NCBI GenBank assembly: GCA_001244265.2
Contig: CDLV01000009.1
Location: forward strand, 496,001 to 560,000
Length of the DNA: 64,000 bases
Source of the DNA: Microbotryum violaceum
Taxonomy: Eukaryota
Direction: 5' to 3'
This document shows, one piece after another, positions 1,866-59,624 of the stretch. A model generated the notes under the pieces. It did no database searches. It worked only from the letters and a program-made list of their open reading frames with translations, and had not been told where the DNA came from. The translations under genes were made by a program, and so were the position numbers. Each line of letters opens with the position of its first letter. Position 1 is the stretch's first letter.

Positions 1866-2908
1866 GGTGGTCGTAGTGTTGGGATCGAATAAAAGTCTAA
1901 AGAGAGGGTGGAAATAGAGTACGTCAGCTTGAAAGCCGTGGTTGAGTCATCCACGTAGGCGAGCGAACGAAAAATTGGTCTGACGGCGTTGACAGGAGCG
2001 AGCTGGGGCCAGACGGTCGTCGGCGATGAGACAAGCGATCGCGGAGGGGGAGAAAGCAGTGATCAAGCTCGGGCAAAGCACCGCAAAAGTATCCATCAAC
2101 CAGACCAAGACTGAAGAGGGAGACGGTGCACATGCTGCGATGACAGCCGAGCCCACACGAGCAGCTCGCCACGACACCCTCACGGGTGAAGGGAGGTGCC
2201 AAGCGAGTGGGAGAGGTGCCTCGTCACCACGACGGTGCAACCCAAGACAGTAAGCTACGAATATACCTCGAGCTAGGCTGGACAGTCATGGCATGCACCG
2301 CATCTCGTCCGAGCGCTGGTCGTCAAGCGAACCAGCGCGCCAGCTCGTTCGTCCCAGTAACCAGCCCGATACCGCTCCATCAAGTCATGTAGCCCGAGAC
2401 TGACCTCTACATAAACTCGTCCCGTACTTGTTCGAGGTGATTGTCGCGTGTATTCTGAACAAGTGCAAGCGCCGAGACCGCACTGTCGGCACGTGAAAGG
2501 AGTGGTCCTACAAAGGGCTGGCCACTCACCACCGACCAGCCCAGCCGCGCAAGCTCGCGCATTCGACCCCGCGCAAGCCGACGAATCGGCCACTTGTAAG
2601 GCTACATTCCCGATTACAAATCCCCAGACTCCCACAATCTCCCCACATCCCGGGGACGGTCTAATCGCTTCGGGCCGGGGCAACCGTTGTTTGAACTTTG
2701 CGTTTGTCTCTCAGGTACGATGACGGGTTGGGTGTCTTGTCTACAAAGTAAGCGCATAGAATTCCACAATCCAGCGGACTGGTAGACCACCGCCGAAAAC
2801 AAAGAGAGGAAACAGCAAAGAAGGAGCAAAAAAGGGAAAGTGTAAAAATGAGGAGAAAAGAAGAGGGTGAAAAAAGAAGATCACAATGGAATGTGCATGT
2901 GTATGATT

Positions 2909-5423: not shown

Positions 5424-5794
5424 GATGTAGGTAAGGATGCGGGGGTGCTGAACCTAGAGAGGAGCAGCGGAAGGTGGCGGAGCAACGCCAACGATCCATA
5501 GCGAATTTCAGGCTCGTGTCGTCGTCAGTGCCGCGCGCCATTTTTCGGTGGTCACAATTTCGCCCCTCCCAATTACAAAGTCGGCAATTCAAGATGTCGA
5601 GTCACACCCTCTCGCCTGCGAACAAGTCGTTTACCCCCGAAAAAACACGGATGCATTTTCACCTTCGCCGAAGGTACAAGAGGAAAAAACAGAAACGTGG
5701 CAAAAAGCTAGAACAAGAGAAAGGTAGAAGAGCAACGCCGGCAAGAAAGGGAACCCACAAAGACTCTAAACGAACGTCCAAGGTTTTCGTTCGC

Positions 5795-6783
5795 TTAGAG
5801 CTTGACTTCCTTGAGTCCGTCCTTCCAGAAGATGAAGTAAGGCGTTGTGCCGTCCTCGCGGTAGTTGAGCAAAGCGATCATGCCGTCGCTGTGAAGAGTG
5901 TCGACGTCAGTTGTTTTGCTCTGATACAGGTCAAGATGAACGCGAAGGCACTCACGGGTTCATCGATTCACCGGTGTAGAACTCGTAGTCCTTGAAGTTG
6001 CCCAAGACCCTGATCGAGCCCGAACGCAGCAGAACTTTAGCACACCAAAACCATCAGATAGCAGTCTCGACTCGTACTGACTTCTTGGCAAGGACAGCGG
6101 CGCCCTTCTCGAACTCGGGAATGCGATCGGGGTTGGTGGCTTGGAGGTGCGCCTTGATGGCCTTCATGTAACCCTTGAGGTAGGTCATGTACGACTTCTT
6201 GTCGAACGAGGTCGCGGTCAAGCGGAACGAGTTGACGATGTTGTTGACCTGCGAGTCACCCTCTTGGAGATCCTCCTCGGCTTCCTCGGCCGAACTGCGC
6301 AGGCGGGTAAGAATCACGACGAGGATGAGCCACTTGTCTTGGCGTCGAGCCAGCGCAATATGCAGTAAGATGTGACTTACGCGTTGGCACCAATGTCAAT
6401 TTGACCGGCACGGAGGGTGATGACGGCGCAGTCAGCCTCGTAGGCGACTCCGTCGACTTCCTTGAGCTAATGGGGACATGTGGAATGGGGAAGAGTCAGC
6501 ACAATGGGTGATAAAACGCGGTGGCAGGTGCATCGTTTGAATGGGGTCCAAGTCGTTACACCCATGAGCGACAAATGGGTCCGTATAACGAGAATATCGA
6601 CCATGTACCGAGCTCGCGTGATCCAGAATCACAACCATCCGCGTGGCTACGCCTCGTTCGCGACGACACGACGAACACGACCACGAGACCGTCGCCAGAA
6701 CCCCAAACCTGCACGAGGTAACTCACGTCGTAGGCATCCGAGACCATCTCGTCGCCGGTGAGAACGTCGGTGTACAACAACAT
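5795..6783 (-). CDS. TMA19: Translationally controlled tumour protein (TCTP)
   Basis: Exons read [47 protein letters not shown] and [25 protein letters not shown]. Confidence 0.95.
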
Positions 6784-30058: not shown

Positions 30059-30145
30059 CACGAACAGAGTCGGATGTTGGTTTGCTGAACGAAAAGCAAG
30101 AACACGAACAGAGTCGGATGTTAGTTTGCTGAACGAAAAGCAAGA
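30059..30145 (+). repeat. 44-bp tandem duplication (2 copies, 1 mismatch)
   Basis: CACGAACAGAGTCGGATGTT(G/A)GTTTGCTGAACGAAAAGCAAGA starting at 30059 and 30103. Confidence 0.95.
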
Positions 30146-32851: not shown

Positions 32852-33221
32852 GCCGATTCATGGATCGGATCCACCCCGAAGTTCTGCCGAACAAACTGGG
32901 CGGGTTAGGCTAGACCTCGTCAGGGTCACATTGTCATACAATACAGTCTGGTAGATAAAGCTTTGCGTTGTGGTAACAAGGCTAAAAGCTCAAGCGGCCT
33001 CCCGTCTGTTCAGAATTTGAGCGATTCTGGGGGGGAAGCTGCAACACCTGGCGATGGAGACCCGACGAGAAGAAGTCACACGGTCGCACAAAAGGATAGC
33101 TCAGGATTCAGCCCTCAAGTCAAGACTTGCAGCCACGTCTTAAGCGCTTTACGATTCGGGCCCAAGCTTCCATGGATTTTGCGATACAACTGCAATTTCA
33201 GAAGCAGATAAGATAACAACT

Positions 33222-35760
33222 CTACAGCTTGGCTTTGATCGGCCCTTCGAGTGTGTCCCGTCGGTAAACCCCTCCGGCCCCACCTTCTCCCCCCTGAACA
33301 GGATCAGCGAGCAAGATGACTGTGACCGTGATCTTAGGACAGGGAGAAACAAAGGGCGTCAACATCAACAGCATCAGGTAAGATTAAAAGTGCCCCCTTG
33401 CTGTAGCATGGCATATATTGGACAAGCGCAACTCACATCGTCTCGATAACGCCGACTGAGCGGTGCGGGAATGCTAAGTAGAATCGAAACCTGTTCCTTC
33501 TTGGCACCCCCGAGCGCGTTCCTCACGAGATGCGTCGCCAAGTTGCCGTCCTCGAACGAAAACACGTCGCCTTCGCCCCGCGTCGGTTCCTGTCGAGGCG
33601 CATGCATGTGCGACAGGTCCGTGTCGATGCTCTGATCGTTAACGTGGTTCATCACGCTCGGTCGGGACTGGTTCCCCCGGACGCCGGAAAGATGGCCTCC
33701 GACGAGCGCAACGATCTCGTCGTTGTTGAGTCGATCGTAGAGACCGTCGGTGGCGAGCACGATAAAGCGCGTTGCCTGAGGTTGCGGCGGTTCGGAGGAA
33801 GAAGAGACGGGCAAGAAAGAAGCGAGCGATCGTCGCTGCGAGGGCAGACCCGCCGATAAATCGGCGCTGACGACCTCCGGGACGGCGGTCACGTAAGGTG
33901 GGGTGTGGTAGTTTTTGGGACGACCGCGGACGGAGCCAGGGTGGAATGCTTGCGCGAGCCGCTCGGCCGTCCCCGGTGGCCACTTGTAGCGTGCGTCGCC
34001 AAACGCTCGAGTCGGTTCGAGCCCTCCCAGGACACGACCACGAGTGATCACCGTGTCGGCCTCTTCTGGTGGATGCTCGGATTGCATCCTATGGGAGCAA
34101 GCGGGGTGATACTTAGTTTTGGCGAGGCTTTGGAATGCGACGTCACTCCTGGCCGACTCACCTCTTGACCTCCTTGGGGTTGCGCCCCGTCTGATCGTCA
34201 CTCAGGACCTCGGCTCGCCATTTCCCGCCACCACCGCTCTGTGCCGGTTCCCACGTTCCCATCACGGCGCGCGAGTCACCGGTGCAGGCGACGTGAAGCT
34301 TGTTCCTACCCGCATCGAGGAAGCACAGCAAGGCGCAGCTACCCGAAAGCGCGGGCAACAACGTCTGCAGCGCCTCGGACGCTTCCAGCCCCAGGATTTG
34401 TTCCGGACTTGGCTTGCTGAGTTTGTTGCCGGCCTTTTCAGCTTTTTCCAACAACCGCACGGGGGCCTGAACGATCTGATTATCCATAGCCGCAAAGGCG
34501 TTCTTGATCGCGGTTTGTAGGATCGGATCGTAGACGTCTAGGTCCAGCTTGGGCTGAGGTGGGGCGGAAGAGAATAGGGACCAAATGGAAGAGCCAGAGG
34601 AGGAAGAGGAGGAAGCAGAGGCGGAAGGTGGGGTCGAAAGCGTTGTTGAAGGTAGCTTGGCCAGCTCAGCGGCGTAAGCGGGGGCGCCGCGGAAGACGAG
34701 ATCGAGTTCGCGAGCGACATAGGAGACGAGGGTGGACGAAAGCAGCCGGCTCGTTTGCCACCCACTGTGTCCGTCTATAACGAGGGCGTAGGGGGAGTGG
34801 ACGGTCAGTACGCCGCTCACTGGTCCCTTTCGAGCAACCAGTCGAATGTGGAGGGAAGGGAGGGGACCGACCGAATACGCCCCAAAAGACGAGATCGCCC
34901 TGGATCGAGTCCTTGATGCGACAGTCTCGTTCGAGAATGACGCAGCACGAGTCATCCTCGATCGGCGAGTTGGAGGCGACCGAGGTGGTGTCGTAACGAA
35001 AGACAGGGTTCGCTCGCCTCGAGACGGCATAGGACGCCTCGTGCTCTTTGAGCCGTGCATCGGTCTCGGCCGGTGAGAGCCGGGTCAAGGTCTTTGTTCC
35101 TGGAGCGCCCGTTCTGAGGAGAAGGGGGAGGGCATTGTGTCAGATTTATGATTTCGGGGTATGGCGGCAGCACTGGGCCGGAACTCTTCGCTGAAGGTGG
35201 CCGATCGACACGAAGCGGGGACGAGCCAGGGTTGACGGGAGGTCGGAGGGCGGGAGGGCGGAGGTGGGAGGTGGGGCGGCGCGGTGACCGGACCGGCCGC
35301 TTTGGAAGCATCGAGTGTTGGGCGTACAAGACCCTGGGTCGGCATCCTCGATCGAGAAAACAAGGCATACGGGAACCCTTGGAATCCCCACAAGCTGGGT
35401 GACTCACTGTGATATGACGGGCACGGTGAAGCTCGATCGCATGCCCTCGCCCTGTCGGCCCATCGCTTCCTCCTTTTCCTTGCGCTGTGACGCGGACCAA
35501 ATGAGCAAGCCAGAGATACCTGCACCTCCTGCAACTAAAAGCGCGATATCGTAGGTGCTACGTCGCGCCGGGGTCGGAGCTGTGGGGCCCGTAGCAAGCC
35601 AGCGACGCTGAAGCTGGCGGGGTGAATGCTGCACGACGCGCACGTGAGACGATGAGGACGACGACGACGCCGACAGGAACGACAGGGACGACAGGGACGA
35701 CAATGACAACCAGGCCTGCGTCGATGGCAACAAACGAGGTGCGAGCCGTGGCTTGATCAT
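33222..35760 (-). CDS. PTC5: Mitochondrial PP2C / pyruvate dehydrogenase phosphatase
   Basis: Presequence-like start MIKPRLAPR, ASNSPIEDD, DGHSGW, ALSGSCALL, VACTGDSRAV, GRVLGGLEPTRAFGDARYKW, TPPYVTA, LATDGLYD, NLATHLVRNALGG, SRRYRDD|ITVTVI. Confidence 0.92.
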
Positions 35761-36015
35761 CGACCTCGAGCTTGAGTGACTCCGCAAGACTATTCTGAGC
35801 CCGCCCGTCCAATCGGTAGGGTAGAGGAAACTGGCTGAAGCCGGACCGTCACTCGTCACTGGGTAGTGCTACAGGCTGGCCGGGCATAAAAGGGCGCAAA
35901 GGGCGCAACGTAGACAGCCACTGCTCTGTCTGGTCACCAAAAACGAGTTGGGCCGGTGGGGCGCAGTTGGGAAGTTGCGCTTGATCTGCAACAACAAAAA
36001 AAATAAACAAGGGGC

Positions 36016-36020
36016 AAAAA
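36016..36020 (-). terminator. RNA polymerase III oligo-dT terminator of the tRNA gene
   Basis: T5 run ~10 nt downstream of the tRNA 3' end on the minus strand, and a T7 run at 35996-36002. Confidence 0.6.
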
Positions 36021-36029
36021 GAAAGATTG

Positions 36030-36128
36030 TGCCTCCAGTGTGAATCGAACACACGACCTTCTCATGCCATAATACACCATAAGACGGTGACGTACGAGTG
36101 AGACGCGCTGCCGCTACGCCATAGAGGC
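36030..36128 (-). tRNA. tRNA-Thr(CGT) with 27-nt intron at canonical position 37/38
   Basis: Minus strand reads GCCTCTA TG GCGTAGCGGCAGCGC G TCTCA CTCGTA[intron 27 nt]A TGAGA AGGTC GTGTG TTCGATT CACAC TGGAGGC A. Acceptor, anticodon and T stems all pair. Confidence 0.92.
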
Positions 36129-36210
36129 CAAACCGGTTACCGGAAGGACCCAGTTAACATATCCTAATTGTTTGCAAATTTTCCCGGGGGGCGGCCTAAA
36201 CGTGCCGTCT

Positions 36211-36315
36211 CACTTCACTTCACTTCACTTCACTTCACTTCACTTCACTTCACTTCACTTCACTTCACTCCACTTCACTTCACTTCACTTCACTTCACTT
36301 CACTTCACTTCACTT
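36211..36315 (+). repeat. (CACTT)21 pentanucleotide array
   Basis: 21 units, one CACTC variant at 36266-36270. Confidence 0.98.
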
Positions 36316-36372
36316 CGAAATCGCCCTACCGCAGTCTGCGATACTCGAGTTAACAAGTGATACACCGACAAG

Positions 36373-38647
36373 ATGTCTACAGGAGACCCTGGGTCCCCAC
36401 CGCCGGCACCGCCACCACCGGTGTCCGCCACCAGCGTCCAGCCACCCCGCGACCAGATCCCGATAAGCTCGAAGAAGACGCAAGCCACGGGCCCCGCCAC
36501 CGCCGCACCCAACTATGCCGCCGCTGCGAGTCAGGCGACTCAGTCACCTGAACAACAGCAACAACAACAACAGCGTGCCAAGGCTCTGGGCAGCCTCCTA
36601 CAAGCCATGGGTGCTGTACCCGGAAACCGCATGGATCGTTGGGTCCAGGCCATCTACTTCGCCGAACTCTACCCCGTCGCCACCGCCACATCGCTGAAAT
36701 TCTCGGCCTTGAACGCGAACCGGTCTGTCGAGAACATCTTTGATTACGCCCTTGAAGTGACTCTGTCTCACCAGAGCACCTCGCGAGCGTCTCATGCCGA
36801 CAAGACCGATCTCGTGGCCTGCGTCACGAGGCTGTTATCGCCGATCTCTCCTATCTGCTTTGAGCCTGGAGTTCCTCTGCCGGACCACCTTGCAGCCTAT
36901 CGACCACAGATCCTAGGCGTACAACATTCATCAATCCTGCGTAATGGGGCGGCTCACCATCGCGTTACGGTTGGGTTCGTCACCGGCGAGGCACGTGACG
37001 CTGCGCTTACGACGCCCCCTGCTCTCACTTGGCGATCGGCGAAGGCCCGCTTCGCGAAATCTCACAGGTTCCACCATAACATGGTCGAGCTTCGAATCAA
37101 CGTCGGTGTTCAAGGAGTGCCTTCCATGGATGCCATCATCAAATCGTTCCAATTACTAGTGCAGGACTTGTCAGGCAAGGGACATTCGTGCCAACTTGTG
37201 CAGGTTCTGCGCATTATCAGCGTGGACAACGCCTCGGCCTTTGCCCACGTTGCCGGAGACTACTCAGCTTTCCTACACTTCGATGACGACTCCCTGTTCA
37301 AACGCCCTAACACGACCTTGAAAGAGATCCTACCTTCGAGAATCGGCCTTCCCACTCGAGGCATCCCGGTCACCGCCCTTCGCCATGACTATGAGAAGGA
37401 GGCGGCTTGCGGTAGGTGCCACTTCGTTGGTCACGTGGGAACCTGCGGACTGGATCAGGAGAGCAAGCGAAAGGAGGCTCACAACGGCAACGGCAACGGC
37501 AACACCAACGCCAACAAGAACACCATCACCAACGACACCAACATTGCGGAGGCCGAGGCCCCCATTCCTGTGCCGGTTGTTAACAGGATCGCATCACAGA
37601 ATCGCTTCGCCGGGCTCGAGGTTGAGGAGGGACAGGAGGAAGCGGTAACTGGCCAGAGCGGACAGGGGCCAGAGGAATCGGGGAGGAGGACGCTGGTGAT
37701 AAGGCGGATGACGAGGACTCGGAGGACTCGGAGATGGAATCAGAGGCGACCGTGAAAACGGAGGCCATCATACTTAAGAGCGAGGACGAGTCGGTTTTAG
37801 AGGACTGCGGAGGATCCGATGGAGAGGTGATTGATGAGGATGAGGTGATGGCGGATGGAAGGGGCGAAACAGAAGGCAAGGTGGCGACGGAGATGGAGGA
37901 AAGGGAGGTGGCGACGGAGATGGAGGAAGAGGAGGTGGCGACGGAGGTGGACGATGTGGACGAGGCAGGGGGAGCGACGAAAGCGGAGAACGCGGAAGCG
38001 ACGGACTTAGGGGAGACGAACAGGCTGGGCAATGACGACGACAGCGACGCAACAGCAACCGCCGCCACCGCTTCCCGCGAATCGACACCCCACGAACCAA
38101 CCCCACCTCTGTCACCCGAAACTCTTGCCAAGTCGCTTCGCGAGGGGGAGGAGTGGGACAGGATCAGAGCTAACTGGGTTGAGCAGGCACGACTCGAGCG
38201 GGACCAAAGCATCGAGAGGAGGCTCGACGCTGAAACCCCTTTGGTGCGTCACAACTTTGCCACGTGGGATGAGGACGGTGAGATACGTTCCATCAATATC
38301 AGGGGGACCGCTTCGAAGTTCAAAAAGCCGGTAATGAAGAGGTCGCAGACTGCGGCGGACCTCAGTGACCCGAGTGACGAACCGACCGACGCCAAGCGAG
38401 TGATCATCAAAGGGAAGAGCCGCGTCGTTGTCAAGGATGGAACAGAGGGCGGAGGGTGACGAGGTCGATGTCAGCGGCGGCGGCGATGCCGGTTGGCGTG
38501 ACGAAAGTGGACCGAGGGAAAGCAAAGGGGGTAGCCGAGGAGAAAAGATGGTCCGACCACGAGCCCGAGGACGATGTCCTGCCCGCCCTCCCCCTCTTTG
38601 AGGACGTCACCACCGCCAAGAGCGCTTCGACCTCAACTACCCATTAA
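36373..38647 (+). CDS. LINE ORF1 (gag-like nucleic-acid-binding protein), two -1 frameshifts as assembled
   Basis: [13 protein letters not shown] knuckle (~37408-37446), SQNRFAGL motif, acidic tail with 27-bp VATEMEE repeats. Joining ORFs 36373, 37734 and 38456 needs one extra G at ~37681 and one at ~38448. Confidence 0.75.
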
Positions 38648-41600
38648 TGATTAAGCACACCATCATCACCTGGAACGTGAGGAGGGGCATGGGGGTCCCG
38701 GAGAAACGACGTGACATTTACAACTACCTATCCCTTTTCAAAGCATCGGCCATTCTCATACAAGAGCACTTCATCAGACCGCACCTCTGGCAACTCATCA
38801 AGGACGAGTACGAGGGCAAGCTCTTCATCAACCAACATTGTCTGACTCTAATTCCGGCTGACTCCCCCTGATCGACGCCGAGCTCTTGCGCACCCACTCG
38901 GCACTCGACGGCCGGCTCCTCGTCACGTCCTTTCGTCTGCGGGGCGACATCAAAATTCTAGAAATCAACAACGTTTACGCGCCCGTTGACCCAAAGCAAC
39001 GAGCGAAATTCTTTGACAAACTCTTATTTCACAAAACACAGAAATCCCACCTCCGACTCCTTGGCGGTGATCTCAACGACTGCCCGCGCCCAGAAGTCGA
39101 TCGGCGGAACCAAAGTCGGCGCGGCCACCACTGGCCAATCCTGATCGGCAAGCTCGACTCGGCCTACACGGACTGCATCCGCTACAAACACCCATCACCC
39201 CATCCTTCACTCGACCTAATCCCAATCGCAAGCGACCCAACTCCTTCTCCCGGCTTGACTACTTTCTCCTGCAACGGACACACCAAAAAAGACTCGATCA
39301 GGCCTCGACGATCTACGACTATCCCAAGGAGCTTTCCGATCACCGACCGGTCTTGATTGTGCTGGCTCTCTCAGACGATCCTGATGCGACCCTCCCACAG
39401 CTCAGCCTACCTACCACATCAAACCAACTACATCGAATCAACACCACAACCTTTAAGACGGTGGAATTCCAGCGGATGATGGAAGGATGGTTGGAAGGGG
39501 CAAGCGGGGAGGAACCGGTGGGGAGCTCGAGGTCATCCTGAAGGCGTGCAGGGATAGGGGTGGGGAGATGGCGAGGAGGTTGCATCGGGAGCGGACGGAA
39601 CGGATGGAGTATTTGGTGGGGAGGGTGCAGATCTGGAGGCGATACCGGAATGGGGGGAGGCGGAAACGGCAGAATGGACAAGGACGTCCGAGGAACTCAA
39701 GCGGGCGGTCGAGGAGCGCGCGCGCCTACTCCGGATCCGAGCCCACGTACCCGAGATCGCCTCCGAGGAACGACTGTCGCGGCCGGTCCACGCCAAGCTC
39801 GCGGCGCGGAACTCGGACTCCAAGATCACAGCACTGCGCTTGAGCAACGGAGAGCTAACGCATGACATTGATGTCGCTCTTGACCACACGCAGGCGCATT
39901 TCCAGCGCCTCTACCACATCGAGCCTCGTGACCCGGACCGCGTCGACCGACTTCGGGACGATTTCCTCGCGCCGATCAGGGCGGCGCGGACTTGCGACGA
40001 CCCGCGCTCGGATCCTCTCTTTCTGCGCCGACTCTCGGAATCACAGAACGACTTACTCCAGCGACCAATCACCGAGGACGAGGTCGTGGCCGCGATCGGG
40101 ACGACGCACCCGGGGCGATCGCCGGGACCGTCGGGCGTGCCCTACGAACTCTACCAGACCGCACCCAAGGCGTGGGCCAAGGTGCTGACCAAGGCCTACA
40201 ACGCGATGATAGAGCGAGGCTCACTCTCTCCCAAGCAGGGCCAAGGACTCGTGCGCCTCATCTTCAAGCGACACAAGAAGAATGCTGATCGCGCCGAACT
40301 TTCGGCGTACCGGCCGATCACCCTGCGCGAGTGCGATTACAAGATCTTTACCAAGGTCTATGTCGCCCGTTTGAACCAAATTCTACCGGATCTCCTCCCG
40401 CCGCAGCAGCACGGATTCGTCAAGGACCGCCGATCGGCTGACGCTGCACTACACCTTCGTCTCCTGATCGAGGAAGTTGGCGCGCGCAGGACCGAGTTCC
40501 CCGCGGCCGCACTCTTATCTCTTGACCAATCGTCCGCCTACGACCTCGTCGAGCATGACTGGATCTTTGCCATCTTTGACGCTCTGGGCGCTCCTGCCAC
40601 CTTTCTTCGCGTGCTGAGGATGCTCTACTCGGGTGACTCGACCTCGGCCCGCTACATCATCAATGGGTTCTTGACGGCGCCGGTACGACTGACATGTGGG
40701 CTCGGCCAAGGGGACCCGGCGTCGTCGTCGTCGGTCTGGGACATCGTGTTTCAGCCGTTTCTGGATGCTCTACACCGTCGAAACATCGCGCTGAATCTCT
40801 CCATACCTGCACTTCATCCGTACCCACAGAGCCGCGCCATTACATCGCTTGCTTTTGCCGATGACGTTGTCGTCGCCGTCGCGGGCTTGGGGTCACTCAA
40901 CTTGCTCGATGACCTGGCGCTCGACTGGAGGCATGCAACGAATGGCCGGCTCAACACGGACAAGACGGTCGTCCTACCGATCGGACGCCGCTGGGACCCG
41001 GGGCAACGCCCGCTCGTCGTCAAGGCCGCAGGCGAGTCGCTCGAGTGGATCGGCCTCCCCTTCGACCCGAGCGGCGACACCGAACTCGCCTACGCGAATC
41101 TCATCGAACGCCTCGAGGCGACGCTGGAAGGGGTTCAGCATCGCTGGCTCACACACCACACCCGTGCCTTTTACGTCAATCGGTACGCCATCCCCAAGAT
41201 CCTGCACTTCCTTGCAGCCGACATCCCGCCGCCCGAAGTCGTCAAGAAGCTCGATGACATGCTCGTCGATTTCGTCCGTGGGGGCAAGGGCAGGACCAGC
41301 TACGGCAGAGATATCGTGTTCACAGCCAAGCTCAAGGGGGGACTCGGGGTGATCAGGATGCAGGACGTCGTGGACGCGGTTGCGGCACGGATCTGGGACG
41401 TTCTTCTCGGCGGTTCGGGCGCGATCTGGCAAGGACTTGCGCGCGTGGCACTCCAGCGAGCTCAGTCCGACCTCGACCTGGCCACCGATCTCTGGCCACA
41501 TCCATCCACTCCCATCCCCAGCGACCTCCATCCCCGATGGCGAGCAGCATTGGGGGTTCCGAAACAGCAAGACGCGCAGGTCAACCCGAGGACCTTGACC

Positions 41601-42663
41601 ACCGCGAACCTGCTCGCGCTTCCCACCTTGCTCGGCAGCCTCCACACCCCATCAGAGGGAGACAGACCATCGACGCGGTTCATATACCTGACTACCTTCG
41701 TCTCCAGGGCTACCCGAAGGTGGCGGATCTCTACCGGCGCGAGTTGTATGCGGGTGGGGGGTTTCACCTTTGGACGCCGCCGGCGGATGTGCTCGGCGAC
41801 AACAGCGAGTACGATCGACGCGGGCTCCCGCAGCGACTGGCAATCGCGGCCTGGTACCGGTTTACTGTCGATCGACACAAGAACACGCCCTTGGCGGTGG
41901 CGGTGGCGGCAGGACGGCTCAACGTGCCTCCCCGGATCGGCACCAGCGCACCGCTCGAGGCGATTCTCCCCAAGCCCGTGGCCCGCTTCGCAATGGAGCA
42001 GCGCCTTCCGGACCCGGTGCTTCCACAGCAGGCGAGCCAGTACAAGCTGCTGAACATGGCTCGACCGTACACCATCCGTCGCATCCGCCGGGTCCTGAAC
42101 GCGAAGGCCTTTACCAACACGCTCGGGCTCAAGGGACCACCGCAGCCGGACGACCTCAGGAGCTTTTGGAAGGCGGTCAACTCGAAGGCACTGACGGCGA
42201 GGGAGAGGGAAGTTTGGTTCAAGCTGATTCTCCGCTTCACCCCGACGCGCAAGCTGCAACACCAACAGAATCACGACACTTCTCCCGCGTGCCTCGTCTG
42301 CGAGGCGCCGGTGGACGACACCGACCACTACTTTTTCGACTGCGTTGACTCTGGGAACGTTTGGATCGCGGCAAGGAGCGTGCTCTGCGACGCACTGGGG
42401 CTCGACACGATCGACAACACGCATTACACGGCTGTTCAACGCATGTTCGGACTTCCGAAGCTCAAGGCCAGTCTACGCGATCAAGAAGGAGCGGGGAGGA
42501 CGATCGAAATATTCACCGGGCTGGTCTTGGAGATGATCAGCAGCGGGAGGTGGGGGATGCAGAAGTGGGGACGAAGATGGAGGGTGTTGTGAGGAGGAGG
42601 ATCATCTTGGAGGAGAGGTTGAAGCTGAGGGCGGGAGGAGCTTGGGGGAGGAGAGGGCAGTAG
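38647..42663 (+). CDS. LINE ORF2 (AP endonuclease, reverse transcriptase, zinc knuckle), six -1 frameshifts as assembled
   Basis: IITWNVR, LIQEH, NVYAP, GGDLN, SRLDYF, SDHRPV (APE). SPGPSG, YRPITL, QHGFV, DQSSAYD, GLGQGDP, FADD, KGGLG (RT). CLVC-X8-H-X4-C (knuckle). Confidence 0.93.
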
Positions 42664-44799
42664 AGGCTGGGTTCGACTTTCCCCCCACCACCACCACACA
42701 CACACACCAAATTCTCGTGACATCATTTTCTCCTACTGTACACTAAATAGATCGCTTTCATCTTTCATTTGTTACAGGTTCACCGTTGCGGATCATGGAC
42801 CATCTCGCGATTTGGCGTCGACTCGGTGTGGCTCGCGCTCTTCGGCTTCGGGGTTCTGAGTCAAGGGAGGGATCAGCGGACACAGGCAGAAAGTCGGCTT
42901 TGAGGGGCCAGGGACTGCCGATGGGGGAGGTTTTGAGGGACCTTCACCGCGTCTTGTTGTGACTGAGCAGAGACTTGGAGCGTCGAGGGTCGTGGTGGTT
43001 GCGCAGTCGTGCTCTTGTCTTCGTCTCGACCGAGTGGGAAGTGGCTGTGGGGTGGGCCTTCTGTCGTTAGTACATTTCTTTTCTTTCTTTTTTCTCTTCA
43101 TCTCTCTTTCTCTCTCTCATTAGTCTCCTGGGGGGGAGCAACCGCTTGGCTAGGGCATTTGAATCCGAATCTCGGATTGGTGGACTTGGCTCGTTTCTCG
43201 CACTTTTGCGGGCGGTTTGTGTTATCATCGTAGTCTTCCATCTAGTTTTTCCGTAGGCCAAAACAGGGGGAACAGGAACTGGGGGCAATATGATGAACGT
43301 TTTCTACAAAAAAAAAAAAACGGGACGCACCCTTGTCTCAATCCTTGCACCGTTATGCAGCAGAGAGAACGTTGAACTTAGATAGCCACCAAGACGTAAA
43401 TGAAACCCCCACTCGGATGGTAGTCTGCACGACCTTGCACGGCTTTTGGGCCACAGGCGACGACACGATCGCAGCGGCTCCTACTCTCCCACTGCATCAT
43501 ACAGAGCGATGCCCACATGTGCAAGCTAAGGTCATCCTTAGTGCCCTTCCATGCATGCAGACACCTCTTCTCACCCCTTAGTAGTACTAGGTAGCAAGAG
43601 TGCCCAGTCGCGCGTCCCCTTACTCCAAGTATGGCCTATGCGTGCGGGCCTTAGTATAGGCATCTGACATTGTCCTCGGCCGGCTGTTGTCAGTCTTGAG
43701 CATCATCACTTTTCACACCTTTCAAGATGAGTACCATCAACACGTTCGCGGTGACTAAAGCCTCTCTGCCCCATGGCCGATCGCGCAGCGCACGTCGCGA
43801 CCCACTCGTACCGCATGTTTCGACATGGGAAGGACGAGTGTCGGATCGGAACGCGCAACGAAGTACAGCCCTCTTCTTGGTTGTTGCTACCCCTATCCTG
43901 TGTGCTAACTTGCAATGCAGAATGTCAATGCGTCCAAGTTGAGATGTTATTCTCTTAGAATCACTCTAGGGACTCTTGAACTATGAAGTTTCCAACAACG
44001 CCCGAATTACTGATGGTGTTGGTTCTAAAAATCTTTCTCGGTTTGGGTGCTGCGCAAACCTGGCAGAGGGAGGTGTTATGGCGCTCCTCCGCTAGAGGTG
44101 CGATATATACTAGTGTACATTTTTATAACTCGTGTTATCTATTTCTTCTCCCAACGAAAGTCTGTAGCTCCCATTCACACCCAGCGAAAGACAATGAAAA
44201 GCGAACCTCCGAGCCGTCGGACAACAGACTAAAAGTGCAAGAAGCAATCTAAACCCCGGCGTATTCGTTTTCAAGCGACCTCTGACTGGAGATTAGCTAA
44301 GTATGATCAAACTAGCAGCATTCACGTGGGTTTGACTCGATGCGACGCCCTGACTCGACTGCGTCGGCGGCGATCACGTCACGCGACCTCTCCCCCGAGA
44401 AGCTGGTCCGTGCGAGCAAGCCCGGCTGTCTTAACCTTCGCAAGCGGCGGCGCGAGTCGAAACGGGCAAAGGTCGCCTCGTCTTACCCCACACCGTGGTC
44501 GTGTGTGCGCACACGAGTCACAAACTTTGACGAATCACCCAGTCGTCACTCGACAATCGCCAAGTGTGATTCAAGGTGGTCTGTTCCCGATACTTCCGCA
44601 GCGGCATCTGCCTACATCGCTCCGGTCCGACCCGTCTTCGCTCGCTCGCCTGGCTCTGGTACTCGTTCAACCCGGCCCCAGCTGTTCAGAAGCTAGCTGC
44701 CCAAGTGGAGGCCATCGCCGTGACGCCATTCCAAGTCACTCGTGCCCCTCCTGCAAGCGCAGCGCGGAATCTGCAACACAAATCCCGTGATCCAGCTGC

Positions 44800-47513
44800 A
44801 TGGCTGCACCTTCGTATCCACCAGCACCCCAAGGCTCGACGCGAGGACCGTCCAAGAAGGCCATCAAGAGAGCCCACGCCGCGCCGATCGCGACCATGAC
44901 TGCCAAAGCCAACCAGCCGCCGCCACTCGTTCGCAGCGGCAGCAAGCGACCGCGACCGTCCGAGTCGTCCTACAATGCGACCGACGTCGATGCGGAGCAG
45001 CAACCACCTGCAGCCGCGGTGAGGAAGGTTGTCGGCATGAAGGCAGTTGCTGCAGCGTCCAAGACGAGACCGTCCTCGATCACCGGCGACGGGAGCGCTT
45101 TCAAGAGGGGCATGTATCTCACCTTCATCGATGACGCCTTCAAGCGGAGACAACAGGTACGACGTACTGGCGAGCGCTGGGGTCAGAGTTGTCATGTGCT
45201 GACACGTGTGATCCAAAACTTCCACAGGGGCAGAACGAGCGTTACAAGGAGCTCATCGCCCAGTTCCTCGCCATCATCCCCTCGACTTCCTCCGCGCCGC
45301 ATGCGAGCTCATCCACCTCCACCTCGTCCTTTACATCGGCGGAAACATCGACAACGGCGTCGTTGCGCGTGTGGCTCGATGCGCTGACCCATATTGTCTC
45401 CAAACTCGACGCAACTCACGCCCCACTCGTCGAGACGATCCTCGCTGTACCGTGGGCGACGATGGACGACGGCTTTGTCACGGTTTACGTCAAGTTCATC
45501 AGCGCGCTCGTCTCGGCACGACCCGAATGGCTGCAAGCCGTCCTGAGCCCGTGTGTACAAGGGTTCAGCTACCGTGAGTCCTGACGTCACCCCCACATGA
45601 AGCCTCGCGGACTCATCCTCTGTCTCTGGCACGCAGGCTCGAAATACACCGTCGGCTCCCCAGCGGCGATGCCATCAATCACGCGGGGAATACTATACAG
45701 CCGACTCCACGCGATGCTCACCATGCTCCTCTCCCTGATTCCGACCCTCGCCCCTTCCCTCGCCCCCCTCCTGTCGATCCATTTCCCCGCCAAACGCGAG
45801 CCCAAGGTTGCGCAAATTTGCTACATCGAGAACCTGCTCGTGCTGAGCGAGTACTGCTCGGCTCTAACGGAAGACATCATGGGTTTGATCGTGGAGAGAG
45901 CGCTCAACATCGACGTCGAGATCCAGGGGGAACCTGATGATTGGGAGGACGCCGAGGAAGAGCTGCTCAGTGTTCAGCCGCGGGAGGACGAAGCGAACGT
46001 CAAGGAGGTCGTCGGTCGACTGATTGCCGAAGATGCGGATGCCTCGAGTGACGATGAGGACGAGGATGACGACGGTGATGCTTTCAACATGGAGGACCTC
46101 GACTCGGACGACGAACCAAACCCTATCAGCGACGACGAGGCGGCGAAAAAAGTTCGGTCAAGCGAGGGTATGTCGGTCGAGGCACTGCGCAAGATTCTCG
46201 AGCGGCGGACCAAACTCGACGCGATCCTCAAAGTCGTGCTCGACCACCTCGCCAATGCGCATGCCGAGGTACCCTCCTCCCCTCGGCCCCCTCTCACGAA
46301 CGAGGGCCTTGACTCGACCGAGACCACACCCACCCCTGAGACCCGACCGTCACAAGAAGTCGTGGAGCGACGACTCGCACTTTTTCGGTCGTTGCTCGAC
46401 ATCTTCGATCGCACGCTCCTGCGCACGTTCAAGACGCGCAACACGCAATTCATCCTCTTTTACCTGTGCTCTCTCGACGTCGCCTCGTCGGATCAGTTCA
46501 TCGGCGTGCTTCTGGGGCGAGCTTTGTTCCAGACGGATGCACCAGCGATCACTCGTGTGGCCGCCGCGGGATACGTCGCGAGCTTCATCAGTCGTGCCAC
46601 GTATGTCGACGCCAGCATGACGCGCAAGGTCGTCCATCACCTGTGCCGCTACCTCGAGACCTCCATGGAAGATTTTGCTGCGGCCTCGCGTGTCTCCACT
46701 GGACCCAAAGCCTCGGCAACATCGAGCGTGGCCATCGATCTGCCCGTCTTTTACGCCGTCACTCAAGCCGTCTTTTATATCTTTTGCTTCCGCTGGAAGG
46801 ACCTGATGGACGAAGGCGAGGAAGACGACCTCGTGCTCGAACCGGGCAGGAGGTGGATGTTGGGCCTCGAGACGATCAAAAAAGTCGTCGCTTCGAACTT
46901 TAATCCGCTAAAGGTGTGCGCTCAATCGATCGTGCAACAGTTCGCCACGATCGCAAACAAGACGAACTTTCTTTACTGCTGGTCCCTCATCGACTCGAAC
47001 CGTCGGTCTGGGGTACGCGACGCGAACGCACCTTCTGCTGCGACATCGTACGCGGTCCCTCACCTCAATCGACAAGCGCCTCCGCCTCCTTCCCGCTCCT
47101 CCGCAGCGTCGATTGCGTCCGCCGCTCCACGGCAGTTGCTCGTCGCAGAGGAAATGGATTCTTTCTTCCCCTTTGACCCTTTCAAGATGCCGCTTTCGTC
47201 CGTCTACATCGACGGCATCTACCGCGAATGGATCGATGACGACGCAAGCTCGTCTGAAGCGTCGTCCGACACTTCATCGTCCGAAGCGAGTGATTCCGAA
47301 GACTCGGCTAGCGATTGCGATCCTGTGTCGGATACGACGAGTGGGTGGGCCGTACCGGGCTTGTTGTCGACGAGTAGTGATCCGGCTTTGGATGCCGAGG
47401 TCGCGAGGTCGTTCGAGGCGATGAGTCTCAGTCTTTCTCCGCATCACGAATCGTTCGGAGGGCGTCGCAAGAAGGAAGAGGATCGACGGCCGGTCATCTC
47501 GAGTTTGGCTTGA
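44800..47513 (+). CDS. RRN3: RNA polymerase I initiation factor Rrn3 (TIF-IA)
   Basis: YLTFIDDAF, WLDALTHIVSKLD, HAMLTMLLSLIPT, IDVEIQ, KLDAILK, TFKTRNTQFILF, AAGYVASFISRA, FYAVTQAVFYIFCFRW, FNPLKVC, FFPFDP. Confidence 0.95.
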
Positions 47514-56878: not shown

Positions 56879-57841
56879 ATGTCTTCCAAGTTCATCTCCT
56901 CTTTGACCGCCCGTCGCACCGTCTACGCCTTGTCGGCCTCTTCTCCCGTCCCCAACTCGAAGGTCAGTCCAAGCCTCAGGGGACTTGGGTCGAGAAGTGG
57001 GAGCGTCGTTCACTGATGCGAGTTCGTCTCGCAACGTCTCCCAGATTGTGGAAATTGTCAATGAAGTCGTCAAGCACTCGCCGACGTCGTTCAATTCACA
57101 ATCTTCAAGGGCCGTTGTAGTCTTTGGTAAGTCTTCGCTTTCTCCGGATCCTCCTCGGAGTAGCCTTCAGGCAAGTTGATCCGGACAGAGCATCGAGCTG
57201 ATCGAGTATTATGTGTCTTCCCTCCTCATCTCCTCATCTCCTCTATTGCCTCCAGGCGATGAGCACAAGAAGGTAAGCACTGGCTCAAGTTCTTCAAAAT
57301 ACGACGACAGGGCCTCGTATGCTAATGACGATCCAATTTCTTAGGTCTGGCAATTCACCAAGAAGGCGCTCAAGGCGATCGTCCCCGCCGAAGCGTGGCC
57401 CCAATCCGAGCAACGCCTCAGTGGGTTCGAGAACGCTCACGGCACGGTCCTTCTCTACGAGGACAAGAATGTCGTCAAGAGTCTGCAGGAAAATATGCCC
57501 ATGTACGCGGACAAATTCCCGCAATGGGCCGACCATGCTCATGGGTAAGCCGAAGGAAAGCCTCTCGTTCCGAAGTTTGGTCTTTCGAGCTAACTCGTCC
57601 TTGATCTCTACGTTCATTCAGAATCCTCGCTTCCAACTTGTGGGTCGCGCTTGAGCTCGAAGGACTCGGCGCCAATTTGCAGCACTACAACCCTCTTTTG
57701 GACGCCGACGTTCAAAAGGAGTTTGACATCCCCGAAGGATGGGAACTCAAGGCGCAACTCGTGTTCGGTAAAGTTGAGGCTCCCGCCGGCGAGAAGACGT
57801 TCCAACCTCTCGAGAGCCGAGTCAAGGTTTTTGGTGCCTAA
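56879..57841 (+). CDS. Nitroreductase-like protein (Hbn1/Frm2 family)
   Basis: ARRTVYAL, VKHSPTSFNSQSSR, GTVLFYED, WVALELEGLGANLQHYNP, WELKAQLVFG. Four coding introns and a probable 5' UTR intron (~56697-56855). Confidence 0.92.
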
Positions 57842-57860
57842 ACGTGGTATGAATTTGGTA

Positions 57861-58281
57861 GAGCAGTCGAATTGGTAGTGCTTGGGAACTCTCGATCTTA
57901 GTTTTGCATGACGAGCAGTCGAATTGGTAGTGCTTGGGAACTCTCGATCTTAGTTTTGCATGACGAGCAGTCGAATTGGTAGTGCTTGGGAACTCTCGAT
58001 CTTAGTTTTGCATGACGAGCAGTCGAATTGGTAGTGCTTGGGAACTCTCGATCTTAGTTTTGCATGACGAGCAGTCGAATTGGTAGTGCTTGGGAACTCT
58101 CGATCTTAGTTTTGCATGACGAGCAGTCGAATTGGTAGTGCTTGGGAACTCTCGATCTTAGTTTTGCATGACGAGCAGTCGAATTGGTAGTGCTTGGGAA
58201 CTCTCGATCTTAGTTTTGCATGACGAGCAGTCGAATTGGTAGTGCTTGGGAACTCTCGATTTTAGTTTTGCATGACGAGCA
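57861..58281. repeat. 52-bp minisatellite, 8 copies plus 5 nt
   Basis: Unit GAGCAGTCGAATTGGTAGTGCTTGGGAACTCTCGATCTTAGTTTTGCATGAC starts at 57861, 57913 ... 58225. A single C>T difference at 58261. Confidence 0.98.
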
Positions 58282-58314
58282 TTAGATTTATCACACTTGG
58301 TCGCCACGCACGGT

Positions 58315-59624
58315 TCAATAAGCTTCCAAGGCCGAATCTCGTTCGTCCGATTCGGTCCACCGAGGTTGGGCATCCGGAAACTCGGCACCTCGTACTTTGA
58401 GATTATAAGAAGCTACAGTGTAAGGAGGGAAAGGTCAGCATTTTTGGAGCAAGCGGTCAACATGCGAAGGTGCGACCGCACCGAGTTCAATCTTGCTCAA
58501 GCTCTGATCGAGCACGACCAATTTTTTGCCCAGCCACCGTGCGTAAGGTGCAAGTGGATCCAAATCTGCGTACTCCCAGATGAAAGAGGTCAATCACTCA
58601 TGCCCGAAGCTCGAGGGACACTTGCCTGCTCCGACTCACCTCCTTTGATAGCCCTCACCAAGCTCCCGAGATCATCGATATCCTCCCCCTTGTCTCCACC
58701 CGTCGCGGCCGTCGCAGCCGCCAACGACTTGCCAATCGAAGCAATGGCCAAACGCATCAATTCACCCGTCAGATCCGCAATGCCCCCTAGATAATCCTCT
58801 CCTGTGACTCGAACCAAAGGGGTTCGATCGTTGGGTTTGGTTGTGGATTCGGAGGGTTCGGCGGGAAGAGGCGATAGTAGGGAAGCCTGAGCTTCGGAAA
58901 GAGTCGGAATCCTTTGGTGGAGCATGTAGTAATAAAAGGTCCATCCCTCGAGCTGTGTAGAGGGGCGCTTGGTCAGCGAACCCAAAGCTAGCTCAGAAAG
59001 AGCACGACTTGGAAAGACGAACATATTCCTGCATTCCTGGTGAAATCGCTTTCTCGTATCTGTGGTGAGGACAGAGAAGCAACGATTCAGCCAAAATTTC
59101 GTTTACACAAGTTCTCTTGTCTAGGACGTACCTCCAGAATTGATCGCCTTGGACCTCAACGTGCACCTTGATGAAGAGCTCTCTCAGTTGCGCGATCTTG
59201 GCCTCGGCTTCTTGGAGGACTGTAGCGCGAGGGGTGTTGGTGATTCTACAACGTTATTTGGTTTTCTGTCAGCATTTATTGTCTGTGCCTTTCCATGATG
59301 CACCCGAGCGGCCGAGACGTACCGATGGAGGGTGAAGATGAGTTTCTTGGACAGCGCAGTGATGTCACGCGAGGTCTTGATCACTCGTTCCCTTCGGTCT
59401 TGCTACAGTTCGAACCGTGTCAAAGCGCAGGCATCAGCTTACAAGCCCACTCGGCGGGATGTGCAGTTCCGTATCGCAGGAAGCGAGAGACCGACATGAG
59501 CATCCAACTCGGTTCGAAAGCCGGCAAAGTCGTCGAGCAGGGATTGACCACGCGTGCGTTTCAGGGAAGGTGTATCGAGCGTTTTAGCCGAGGTGGTCGC
59601 CACTGATTCCGAGAGAGTTACCAT
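58315..59624 (-). CDS. TSNAX: Translin-associated factor X (TRAX, C3PO nuclease subunit)
   Basis: FRTELDAH, ERVIKTSRDITALSKKLIFTLHR, SPGMQEY, DYLGGIADLTGELMRLAI, YNLKVRGAE. Confidence 0.88.

What the first reader, a model, noticed from the sequence alone, without database searches (positions are those of the whole stretch)
36030..43324. Full-length LINE inserted head-to-head just upstream of a tRNA gene: candidate tRNA-gene-targeting non-LTR retrotransposon in a fungus
Seen: the tRNA-Thr(CGT) 5' end is at 36128 (minus strand). The element's 5' end lies 58-82 bp away (G-run at 36186 or CACTT array at 36211) and points away from the tRNA. It is the only large mobile element in a gene-dense 64 kb. 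Known: position- and orientation-specific insertion ~50 bp upstream of tRNA genes is the strategy of the Dictyostelium L1-type element TRE5-A. In fungi, Pol III-gene targeting is established for the LTR elements Ty1 and Ty3. Inference: this may be an independently evolved TFIIIB-guided LINE family in basidiomycetes. I do not know of a described one. A single locus cannot prove targeting.
Basis: partly seen in the sequence, partly recalled or inferred. Interest (0 to 1): 0.85.

Follow-up and report, generated by a model that had tools for sequence, protein, structure and literature searches.

The report
Young LINE beside a fungal tRNA gene
A recently inserted, complete L1-like jumping gene sits 80 bases upstream of a threonine tRNA gene in an anther-smut fungus (Microbotryum), but a single copy cannot show that this family aims at tRNA genes.

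Summary
A tRNA-Thr(CGT) gene with an intron lies at 36030-36128 on the minus strand. A 7.1 kb non-LTR element lies at about 36209-43321 on the plus strand, transcribed away from the tRNA. It has two ORFs, APE-RT-zinc finger domains and an A13 tail.

- **Empty site:** a 17.4 kb contig of a close relative joins 36199 to 43321 with only 9 letters between. The insertion is therefore recent. Its 5' boundary is at the (CACTT)n array, 80 nt from the tRNA.
- **Family:** it is multi-copy, restricted to Microbotryum by ORF1, and closest to human L1 ORF2p among solved structures.
- **Frameshifts:** the window has eight. All are single missing bases and 7 of 8 lie in G/C runs, so they are probably assembly errors.
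- **Targeting claim:** I could not test it. Metagenome relatives were too distant or truncated.

My arithmetic suggests one such coincidence per genome is not rare. Verdict: a new member of a known kind. I put tRNA targeting at about 0.2.

The parts
36030..36128 (-). tRNA-Thr(CGT) gene with a 27-29 nt intron
   Evidence: Rfam tRNA 53.6 bits. ARAGORN with the intron option calls it. ARAGORN with default settings missed it.
36129..36208 (.). 80-nt single-copy spacer between the tRNA 5' end and the insertion point. It holds an AT-rich stretch about 25-55 nt upstream of the tRNA.
   Evidence: X10 and X1 contigs at single-copy depth run to 36199 (table 8). Sequence read. That the 9 bridging letters equal 36200-36208 is inferred.
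36209..43321 (+). L1-like non-LTR retrotransposon, about 7.1 kb, absent from the orthologous site in run X10
   Evidence: X10 record 10 joins 36199 to 43321 with 9 letters between. Summed depth is 11-17 times the flank over the 5' part and 35-100 times at the 3' end.
36211..36316 (+). (CACTT)n array of about 21 units at the element's 5' end, with one CACTC variant
   Evidence: the repeat finder family D2 and sequence. It is not in the empty site. Family-level contigs reach 36-55 letters upstream of 36323 (table 8), so other copies probably carry it too (inferred).
36373..38647 (+). ORF1. It reads 460 aa in the window. The family form is about 750 aa, running through frames 1>3>2 with shifts near 37683 and 38446 and a TAA stop at 38645-38647. 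It has a CX2CX4HX3C knuckle and an acidic repeat tail, and no Pfam family.
   Evidence: Translation. Homologues P0086, P0087 and P0098 map across the three frames. 33 of 33 hits are Microbotryum and none has a Pfam domain.
38647..42663 (+). ORF2 (APE endonuclease, reverse transcriptase, zf-RVT), about 1340 aa. Its ATG overlaps the ORF1 stop (TAATG). The window has shifts near 38866, 39190, 39519, 39629, 41646 and 42566.
   Evidence: tblastn of P0003, P0005 and P0006. Pfam. Extra bases in the contigs of all four runs (table 4). Best solved-structure match is human L1 ORF2p at 1.4e-22.
42664..43308 (+). 3' UTR with a CT-rich low-complexity block at 43069-43119
   Evidence: Sequence. Other copies skip 43035-43131 (table 5).
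43309..43321 (+). A13 tail. The last A may belong to the target.
   Evidence: Sequence. The X10 alignment resumes at 43321.
33374..35084 (-). Left neighbour: PP2C-type protein phosphatase gene (exon ORFs)
   Evidence: Pfam PP2C at 2.8e-11 and 2.3e-06.
45585..47513 (+). Right neighbour: RRN3 (RNA polymerase I initiation factor) gene, main exon
   Evidence: Pfam RRN3 at 6e-129.

Best explanation
This is an ordinary, recently active L1-like LINE of Microbotryum. One structurally complete copy (36209-43321) was inserted by target-primed reverse transcription into the roughly 1.4 kb spacer between a PP2C gene and RRN3. It landed 80 nt upstream of a tRNA-Thr gene and reads away from it. Shown: the element's parts, its multi-copy and 5'-truncated family, the empty site in a close relative, and the likely artefactual nature of the frameshifts. 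Inferred: that the nearness to the tRNA reflects chance plus survival of insertions in harmless intergenic DNA, rather than a dedicated Pol III-guided mechanism.
For: **Domains and relatives.**
- RVT_1 scores 4.4e-19, and weak APE and zf-RVT hits are present.
- 84 homologues were found. The best ones are all Microbotryum at 66-98% identity, and intact 1325-1335 aa forms carry APE+RT+zf-RVT.
- The best PDB match is human LINE-1 ORF2p at 1.4e-22.
- L1-clade elements are already reported from M. violaceum (PMC3956500 citing Hood 2005, passage seen).

**Family behaviour typical of LINEs.**
- Summed contig depth rises from about 11-17 times the flank over the 5' part to 35-100 times at the 3' end.
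- Truncated copies show loose ends at 37069 and 40650.
- There is an inverted junction at 38849/38914.

**Recent insertion.**
- X10 has an empty site. Its flanks differ from the window by 15 of 2808 and 11 of 2680 letters.
- The window copy differs from X1's family contigs by 3 of 1387 and 6 of 2113 letters.

**Chance.** With 134 tRNAs and 392 LINE copies in about 25 Mb, my arithmetic gives about 0.1 expected head-to-head cases within 100 nt per genome. Allowing any side or orientation gives about four times that.

**Distance.** 80 nt is outside TRE5's 40-54 nt window.

**Other copies.** Some relatives sit next to Copia or transporter sequence (P0022, P0046, P0050).
Against: - For this family alone the expected number of chance coincidences is only about 0.01-0.03. 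That rests on perhaps 15 full-length and 50-100 total copies, a rough reading of depth that the tool says is not a copy number. Seen without a look-elsewhere correction, the configuration is therefore uncommon.
- The orientation is the one TRE5 uses.
- The target (read as ...GCCGT|ACGGG...) is not the T-rich site that L1-type endonucleases usually nick. No target-site duplication of 2 nt or more fits the 9-letter bridge. Something other than endonuclease sequence preference may therefore have chosen the site.
- ORF1 is lineage-specific and of unknown fold. A tethering role cannot be excluded.
- No 5' flank of any other copy was seen.
Confidence: 0.68

Rival explanations
1. TRE5-like targeting. 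The family recognises the Pol III pre-initiation complex (TFIIIB/TFIIIC) on tRNA genes, perhaps through its lineage-specific ORF1 protein. It integrates at a fixed distance upstream with its 5' end facing the tRNA. This would be a fungal, independently evolved counterpart of the Dictyostelium TRE5 and NLTR-B elements.
For: - The 5' end faces the tRNA 5' end at 80 nt, in the opposite orientation, as for TRE5 (PMC5911963).
- The insertion is recent and lies in a gene-dense spacer, with both neighbours intact as far as Pfam shows.
- The target is not T-rich and no clear duplication is seen.
- ORF1 has no known family and occurs only in Microbotryum.
- For this family alone, chance expectation is low (my arithmetic).
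Against: - There is one locus only.
- 80 nt is outside the 40-54 nt (TRE5) and 39-64 nt (NLTR-B) windows.
- No fungal precedent appears in the review table or in four literature searches.
- Related RT gene models are fused to Copia or transporter domains, so some copies lie elsewhere.
- The look-elsewhere effect of a scan over many windows applies.
Confidence: 0.2
2. Open-chromatin or promoter preference without Pol III specificity. The element integrates preferentially in nucleosome-poor divergent promoter regions. The PP2C-tRNA-RRN3 spacer is simply one such region.
For: - The insertion lies in a spacer of about 1.4 kb (once the element is removed) between divergently placed genes.
- Insertions in such regions are likely to be tolerated in a genome with a mean inter-CDS length of 1,181 bp (PMC4469406).
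Against: [quoted passage not shown]
- No other copy's flank was seen here.
Confidence: 0.1
3. Microsatellite-specific LINE. The element targets (CACTT)n/(AAGTG)n arrays, as some Tx1-type elements target simple repeats (recalled, not from a call).
For: A 106-nt (CACTT)n array lies at the 5' junction.
Against: - The empty site in X10 has only 9 letters between 36199 and 43321, so no array pre-existed there.
- There is no CACTT repeat after the poly(A) tail.
- Family-level contigs carry 36-55 letters upstream of 36323, even in X10, which lacks this insertion. The array therefore travels with the element (inferred from lengths).
Confidence: 0.02

Closest known systems
L1-clade non-LTR retrotransposons of Microbotryum violaceum sensu lato (Hood 2005, as cited in PMC3956500; only the citing passage was seen)
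   Same: Same genus. It has an APE-RT-zinc finger ORF2, a poly(A) tail and 5'-truncated copies. The best solved-structure match is human L1 ORF2p.
   Different: I could not compare sequences with the published fragments. The (CACTT)n 5' array, the roughly 750 aa acidic-tailed ORF1 and the TAATG stop-start overlap are described here from the window and its homologues. Whether they are in print I cannot say.
Dictyostelium discoideum TRE5-A (L1-type, tRNA gene-targeted)
   Same: Two ORFs, and an ORF2 ordered APE-RT-zinc finger. The 5' end faces the tRNA 5' end in the opposite transcriptional orientation. It lives in a gene-dense genome (PMC5911963 passages).
   Different: TRE5 inserts 40-54 nt upstream and nearly all copies are tRNA-associated. 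Here the distance is 80 nt and only one copy was seen. TRE5-A ORF1 is shown to bind TFIIIB, which was not tested here. TRE5-A has modular A/B/C UTRs, whereas this element has a pentanucleotide array. No phylogeny was built, so 'independent origin' is untested.
Candida albicans Zorro3 (fungal L1-superfamily LINE)
   Same: A fungal L1-type element with two ORFs and a zinc-finger ORF1. New copies are often full length (PMC7175516 passages).
   Different: Zorro3 integrates into poly(A) tracts and is flanked by poly(A) on both sides. This element has no A-tract at its 5' flank.
Saccharomyces Ty1 and Ty3 (LTR elements targeted to Pol III genes)
   Same: Insertion upstream of a tRNA gene. Ty1 uses a broad window that includes about -80 (PMC5911963).
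   Different: These are integrase-based LTR elements, a different class and mechanism.

Membership tests
LINE / L1-like non-LTR retrotransposon | ORF2 with an APE endonuclease followed by reverse transcriptase, with no LTRs | tested here: met
   RVT_1 at 4.4e-19. Exo_endo_phos is weak in the broken window piece but present in intact homologues P0003 and P0006. The alignment to human L1 ORF2p spans APE to RT at 1.4e-22. The repeat finder found no terminal direct or inverted repeats.
LINE / L1-like non-LTR retrotransposon | 3' poly(A) tail and 5'-truncated copies (target-primed reverse transcription) | tested here: met
   A13 at 43309-43321. Depth rises towards the 3' end, truncation points show loose ends at 37069 and 40650, and there is an inverted junction at 38849/38914.
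LINE / L1-like non-LTR retrotransposon | Target-site duplication flanking the insertion | tested here: inconclusive
   The empty-site contig has 9 letters between 36199 and 43321. If these equal 36200-36208, no duplication of 2 nt or more exists. The letters themselves were not shown.
LINE / L1-like non-LTR retrotransposon | Placement in the L1 clade by RT phylogeny | not tested
   No tree was built, because named reference sequences (TRE5, Tx1, Zorro, Ylli, Tad1) were not available from a tool. The only support is the best PDB hit being L1 ORF2p, the absence of an RNase H Pfam hit, and the literature statement.
Pol III gene-targeted LINE (TRE5-like) | Most copies lie in a narrow window upstream of tRNA or 5S genes | not testable with these tools
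   No genome is held. Metagenome relatives were distant or truncated. One copy of one was seen.
Pol III gene-targeted LINE (TRE5-like) | Fixed orientation relative to the tRNA gene | tested here: inconclusive
   The single copy is in the TRE5 orientation. n = 1.
Pol III gene-targeted LINE (TRE5-like) | Insertion distance of about 40-64 nt from the mature tRNA 5' end | tested here: not met
   80 nt here, against 40-54 nt (TRE5) and 39-64 nt (NLTR-B) in PMC5911963. A new family need not share this distance.
Pol III gene-targeted LINE (TRE5-like) | An element protein binds TFIIIB/TFIIIC | not testable with these tools
   ORF1 has no known domain. Its AlphaFold model has pLDDT 37.5 and is unusable. 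No host TFIIIB sequences were in hand.
Microsatellite-specific LINE (Tx1-type; recalled) | The target repeat is present in the empty site and on both flanks | tested here: not met
   Only 9 letters bridge the empty site. There is no CACTT repeat 3' of the tail.

The most novel reading that the evidence does not exclude
This Microbotryum L1-like family is a fungal LINE that homes to RNA polymerase III genes. It would integrate about 80 nt upstream of tRNA genes with its 5' (CACTT)n end facing the gene, guided by its lineage-specific ORF1 protein binding the TFIIIB/TFIIIC complex. That would be the first tRNA-targeting non-LTR element outside the dictyostelid amoebae, and a further case of convergent evolution of safe-site targeting.
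Probability: 0.2. Interest if true: 0.8.

Novelty: new member of a known kind. Interest (0 to 1): 0.3.

Why it matters
As it stands, this is a well-resolved example of a young, probably still active L1-like element in anther-smut fungi. Its exact insertion boundaries come from an empty site in a close relative. It also shows that eight apparent frameshifts in a repeat can be homopolymer errors of the assembly rather than decay.

If the family did prove to home to tRNA genes, it would extend Pol III-guided LINE integration from amoebae to fungi. The review I read lists it only for dictyostelids (PMC5911963). Microbotryum would then offer many sequenced strains in which to map new insertions.

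Tried and rejected
- **Whole-genome tabulation.** I retried neither.
- **Read laying (one call allowed).** The tool skipped 36200-36322 as a repeat, so 5' junctions of other copies were not listed. 176 loose ends, 29 indels and 1004 contig pieces were not shown. No shown piece of X9 reaches either junction, so organism B's state is unknown. X15's contigs stop matching at 36133 and 43335, and I could not resolve why.
- **Metagenome scan with a 13-sequence ORF2 alignment.**
  - 208 relatives were found and 80 kept, mostly at 20-28% identity.
  - The two nearest (L001 43%, L049 48%) match only from residues 440 and 654 onward and have no Rfam hit.
  - ARAGORN found tRNA calls in 5 of 80 loci. One is spurious, with a 2307-nt 'intron', and L019 and L020 are the same locus. 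That is about what 672 kb of fungal-like DNA would hold.
  - I mapped element ends only in L021, where the tRNA lies about 460 nt beyond the ORF2 stop.
  - This is not a test of this family.
- **ORF1 fold.** The AlphaFold2 model from 16 sequences gave a mean pLDDT of 37.5. I ran no fold search on it.
- **Target-site duplication.** An 'AAACG' repeat on both sides would need 0 bridging letters, not 9. 'ACGTGCCGT' against 'ACGGGACGC' matches at only 6 of 9. I rejected both.
- **RT phylogeny with TRE5, Tx1, Zorro and Ylli.** Not done, because no tool supplied those sequences.
- **Literature.** Five full-text searches and passages of seven papers turned up no fungal tRNA-targeting LINE.
Full report
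**Observation**

The tRNA is real. Rfam's tRNA model scores 53.6 bits at 36030-36128 on the minus strand, with a 29-nt insertion in the anticodon loop. It is the only Rfam family found in the whole window.

ARAGORN with default settings reports no tRNA. With introns allowed it calls tRNA-Thr(cgt) at c[36029,36128] with a 27-nt intron. A run of five T lies about 10 nt past the gene's 3' end, as expected for a Pol III terminator (read).

To the right, on the plus strand, lie these features:
- a (CACTT)n array at 36211-36316;
- an ORF starting at 36373;
- pieces carrying reverse transcriptase (RVT_1, 4.4e-19), a weak APE endonuclease hit (0.0017) and a zf-RVT hit (8.6e-06) (3 of 9 pieces had a hit);
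- an A13 tail at 43309-43321.

**Host and family**

A search with the largest ORF2 piece gave 84 proteins. The best are all from Microbotryum species (M. silenes-dioicae 98%, M. saponariae 91%, M. intermedium 86-90%). The first named hit from another genus is Rhodotorula toruloides at 40%. Intact forms of 1325 and 1335 aa (P0003, P0006) carry APE, RT and zf-RVT.

Among solved structures the best match is human LINE-1 ORF2p (1.4e-22, spanning APE to RT), ahead of R2 proteins. L1-clade elements have been reported from M. violaceum (PMC3956500 citing Hood 2005; I saw the citing passage only). I built no phylogeny.

**Anatomy, refined**

Mapping homologues onto the window shows two long ORFs.
- **ORF1.** The family's ORF1 is about 750 aa. 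It runs from 36373 through frames 1, 3 and 2 to a TAA stop at 38645-38647 (P0086, P0087 and P0098).
- **ORF2.** ORF2 starts at an ATG at 38647, overlapping that stop (TAATG). It runs to 42663 through six further shifts.

Every shift moves the frame by -1.

Illumina-derived contigs of all four runs laid on the window carry one extra base at 38446, 39190, 39519, 39629, 41646 and 42566 (table 4; 29 further indel rows were not shown). Seven of the eight shift sites lie in runs of three or more G or C.

The simplest reading is that these are homopolymer deletions of a long-read assembly. The collapsed contigs reflect the family rather than this copy, so copy-specific mutations are not excluded.

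ORF1 has a CX2CX4HX3C knuckle and an acidic, repeat-bearing tail. It has no Pfam family, and 33 of 33 homologues are from Microbotryum. An AlphaFold2 model of it was unusable (pLDDT 37.5).

**Empty site and age**

In run X10 (organism C) one 17,396-letter contig aligns to 33392-36199 and to 43321-46000, with 9 letters between the two parts (table 8). That is the orthologous site without the element.

The tool skips 36200-36322 as a repeat. The 9 letters are therefore most simply 36200-36208, but the letters were not shown, so this is an inference. Three things follow:
- the G-run at 36186 is flank;
- the (CACTT)n array arrived with the insertion;
- the element begins at about 36209, 80 nt from the tRNA's 5' end.

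In X1 (organism A) a single-copy contig runs to 36199 plus 39 further letters, and another begins at 43292. This fits the filled site.

The flanks in X10 differ from the window by 15 of 2808 and 11 of 2680 letters. The window copy differs from X1's family contigs by 3 of 1387 and 6 of 2113 letters. The insertion is therefore young and the family recently active.

No duplication of 2 nt or more fits the 9-letter bridge. The inferred target (…GCCGT|ACGGG…) is not T-rich.

**Family behaviour**

Summed contig depth is 7.5-10 in the flanks of X1, 111-133 over the 5' half of the element and 336-912 near the 3' end. In X10 the figures are 28, 306-350 and 986-1561 (table 2). The tool warns that this is not a copy number. 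Read roughly, it suggests ten or more long copies and several-fold more 3' ends.

Three other features are usual for LINEs:
- truncated copies with their own flanks, at 37069 and at 40650 (the latter shared by X1, X9 and X10);
- an inverted junction at 38849/38914;
- variants that skip 43035-43131.

Family-level contigs extend 36 letters (X10) and 55 letters (X1) upstream of 36323. This suggests that other copies also begin with the array (inferred from lengths).

**Surroundings**

The left neighbour is a PP2C phosphatase gene (33374-35084, minus strand). The right neighbour is RRN3 (45585-47513, plus strand). None of the 10 largest ORFs outside the element has a transposon domain.

**The targeting claim**

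The geometry matches TRE5 in orientation. The review PMC5911963 says TRE5 inserts about 44-54 nt upstream of the mature tRNA in the opposite transcriptional orientation, and that its ORF1 protein binds TFIIIB. Its table lists only dictyostelid TRE5, TRE3, NLTR-A and NLTR-B as tRNA-targeting non-LTR elements (passages). Here the distance is 80 nt.

I could not examine other copies, for four reasons:
- no genome is held;
- the one read-laying run masked the 5' array;
- short-read contigs cannot cross a 106-nt pentanucleotide array in any case.

A metagenome scan returned 80 loci, mostly at 20-28% identity.
- The two nearest (43% and 48%) are 5'-truncated matches without Pol III genes.
- tRNA calls occurred in 5 of 80 loci. 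One is spurious and two are the same locus.
- I mapped ends only in L021, where the tRNA lies about 460 nt beyond ORF2.

None of this tests the Microbotryum family.

**Chance**

M. lychnidis-dioicae is reported to have 134 tRNA genes and 392 LINE copies (PMC4469406, Tables 1 and 2 as shown in passages). I take a genome of about 25 Mb. That size is an assumption, and the runs' contigs total 22-23 Mb.

- **All LINEs.** A 5' end within 100 nt upstream of a tRNA in the opposite orientation is expected about 0.1 times per genome under uniform insertion. The figure is two to three times higher if only intergenic insertions survive, and about four times higher again if any side or orientation would have drawn attention.
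- **This family alone.** The figure is about 0.01-0.03.

The locus is therefore suggestive but not significant for a finding picked from a scan.

Some related RT gene models are fused to Copia or transporter domains (P0022, P0046, P0050). This shows copies in other settings.

**Verdict**

This is a real, structurally complete, recently inserted L1-like LINE of a known kind in Microbotryum. Its boundaries are well defined and its family is probably active.

I put the tRNA-targeting reading at about 0.2. It would be of high interest if a genome-wide tabulation bore it out.

Five literature searches found no fungal tRNA-targeting LINE. The main text of the recent Microbotryum TE paper PMC10502011 does not contain the word tRNA.

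Noticed in passing
window 36133 and 43335 (run X15): In the more divergent run X15 the flanking contigs stop matching the window at 36133, 5 nt upstream of the tRNA, and at 43335. They run on for 92 and 105 unlike letters and then end. The tRNA-upstream spacer there is either strongly diverged or holds a different repeat. If it holds a repeat, this would be an independent insertion at the same tRNA.
   Followed up: no
window 33383-33421: Contigs of three runs break here and summed depth in 33000-33433 is about 4-5 times the flank. X15 skips 35 nt (33383 to 33419). A short dispersed repeat seems to sit inside or beside the PP2C gene.
   Followed up: no
window 57809-58380: A tandem array of a 52-nt unit, with about 11 units and the central ones 100% identical.
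   Followed up: no
window 30059-30145: A tandem duplication of a 43-44 nt unit at 98% identity.
   Followed up: no
window 37872-37966: Three 27-nt repeats inside the acidic tail of ORF1, encoding (E/V)ATEMEE-like units. ORF1 length differs among homologues from 610 to 742 aa.
   Followed up: partly
window 38645-38649: The ORF1 stop and ORF2 start overlap as TAATG. This arrangement is often linked to termination-reinitiation (that link is recalled, not from a call).
   Followed up: no
L021 424-7033: A distant LINE (23% identity in ORF2) from a soil metagenome has intact ORF1 (424-2358) and ORF2 (2380-6498). A tRNA-Lys(ctt) on the same strand lies about 460 nt past the ORF2 stop, at the contig end.
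   Followed up: partly
window 1-64000: ARAGORN with default settings missed the intron-bearing tRNA that Rfam and ARAGORN -i both find. tRNA censuses of these fungi need intron-aware settings.
   Followed up: yes
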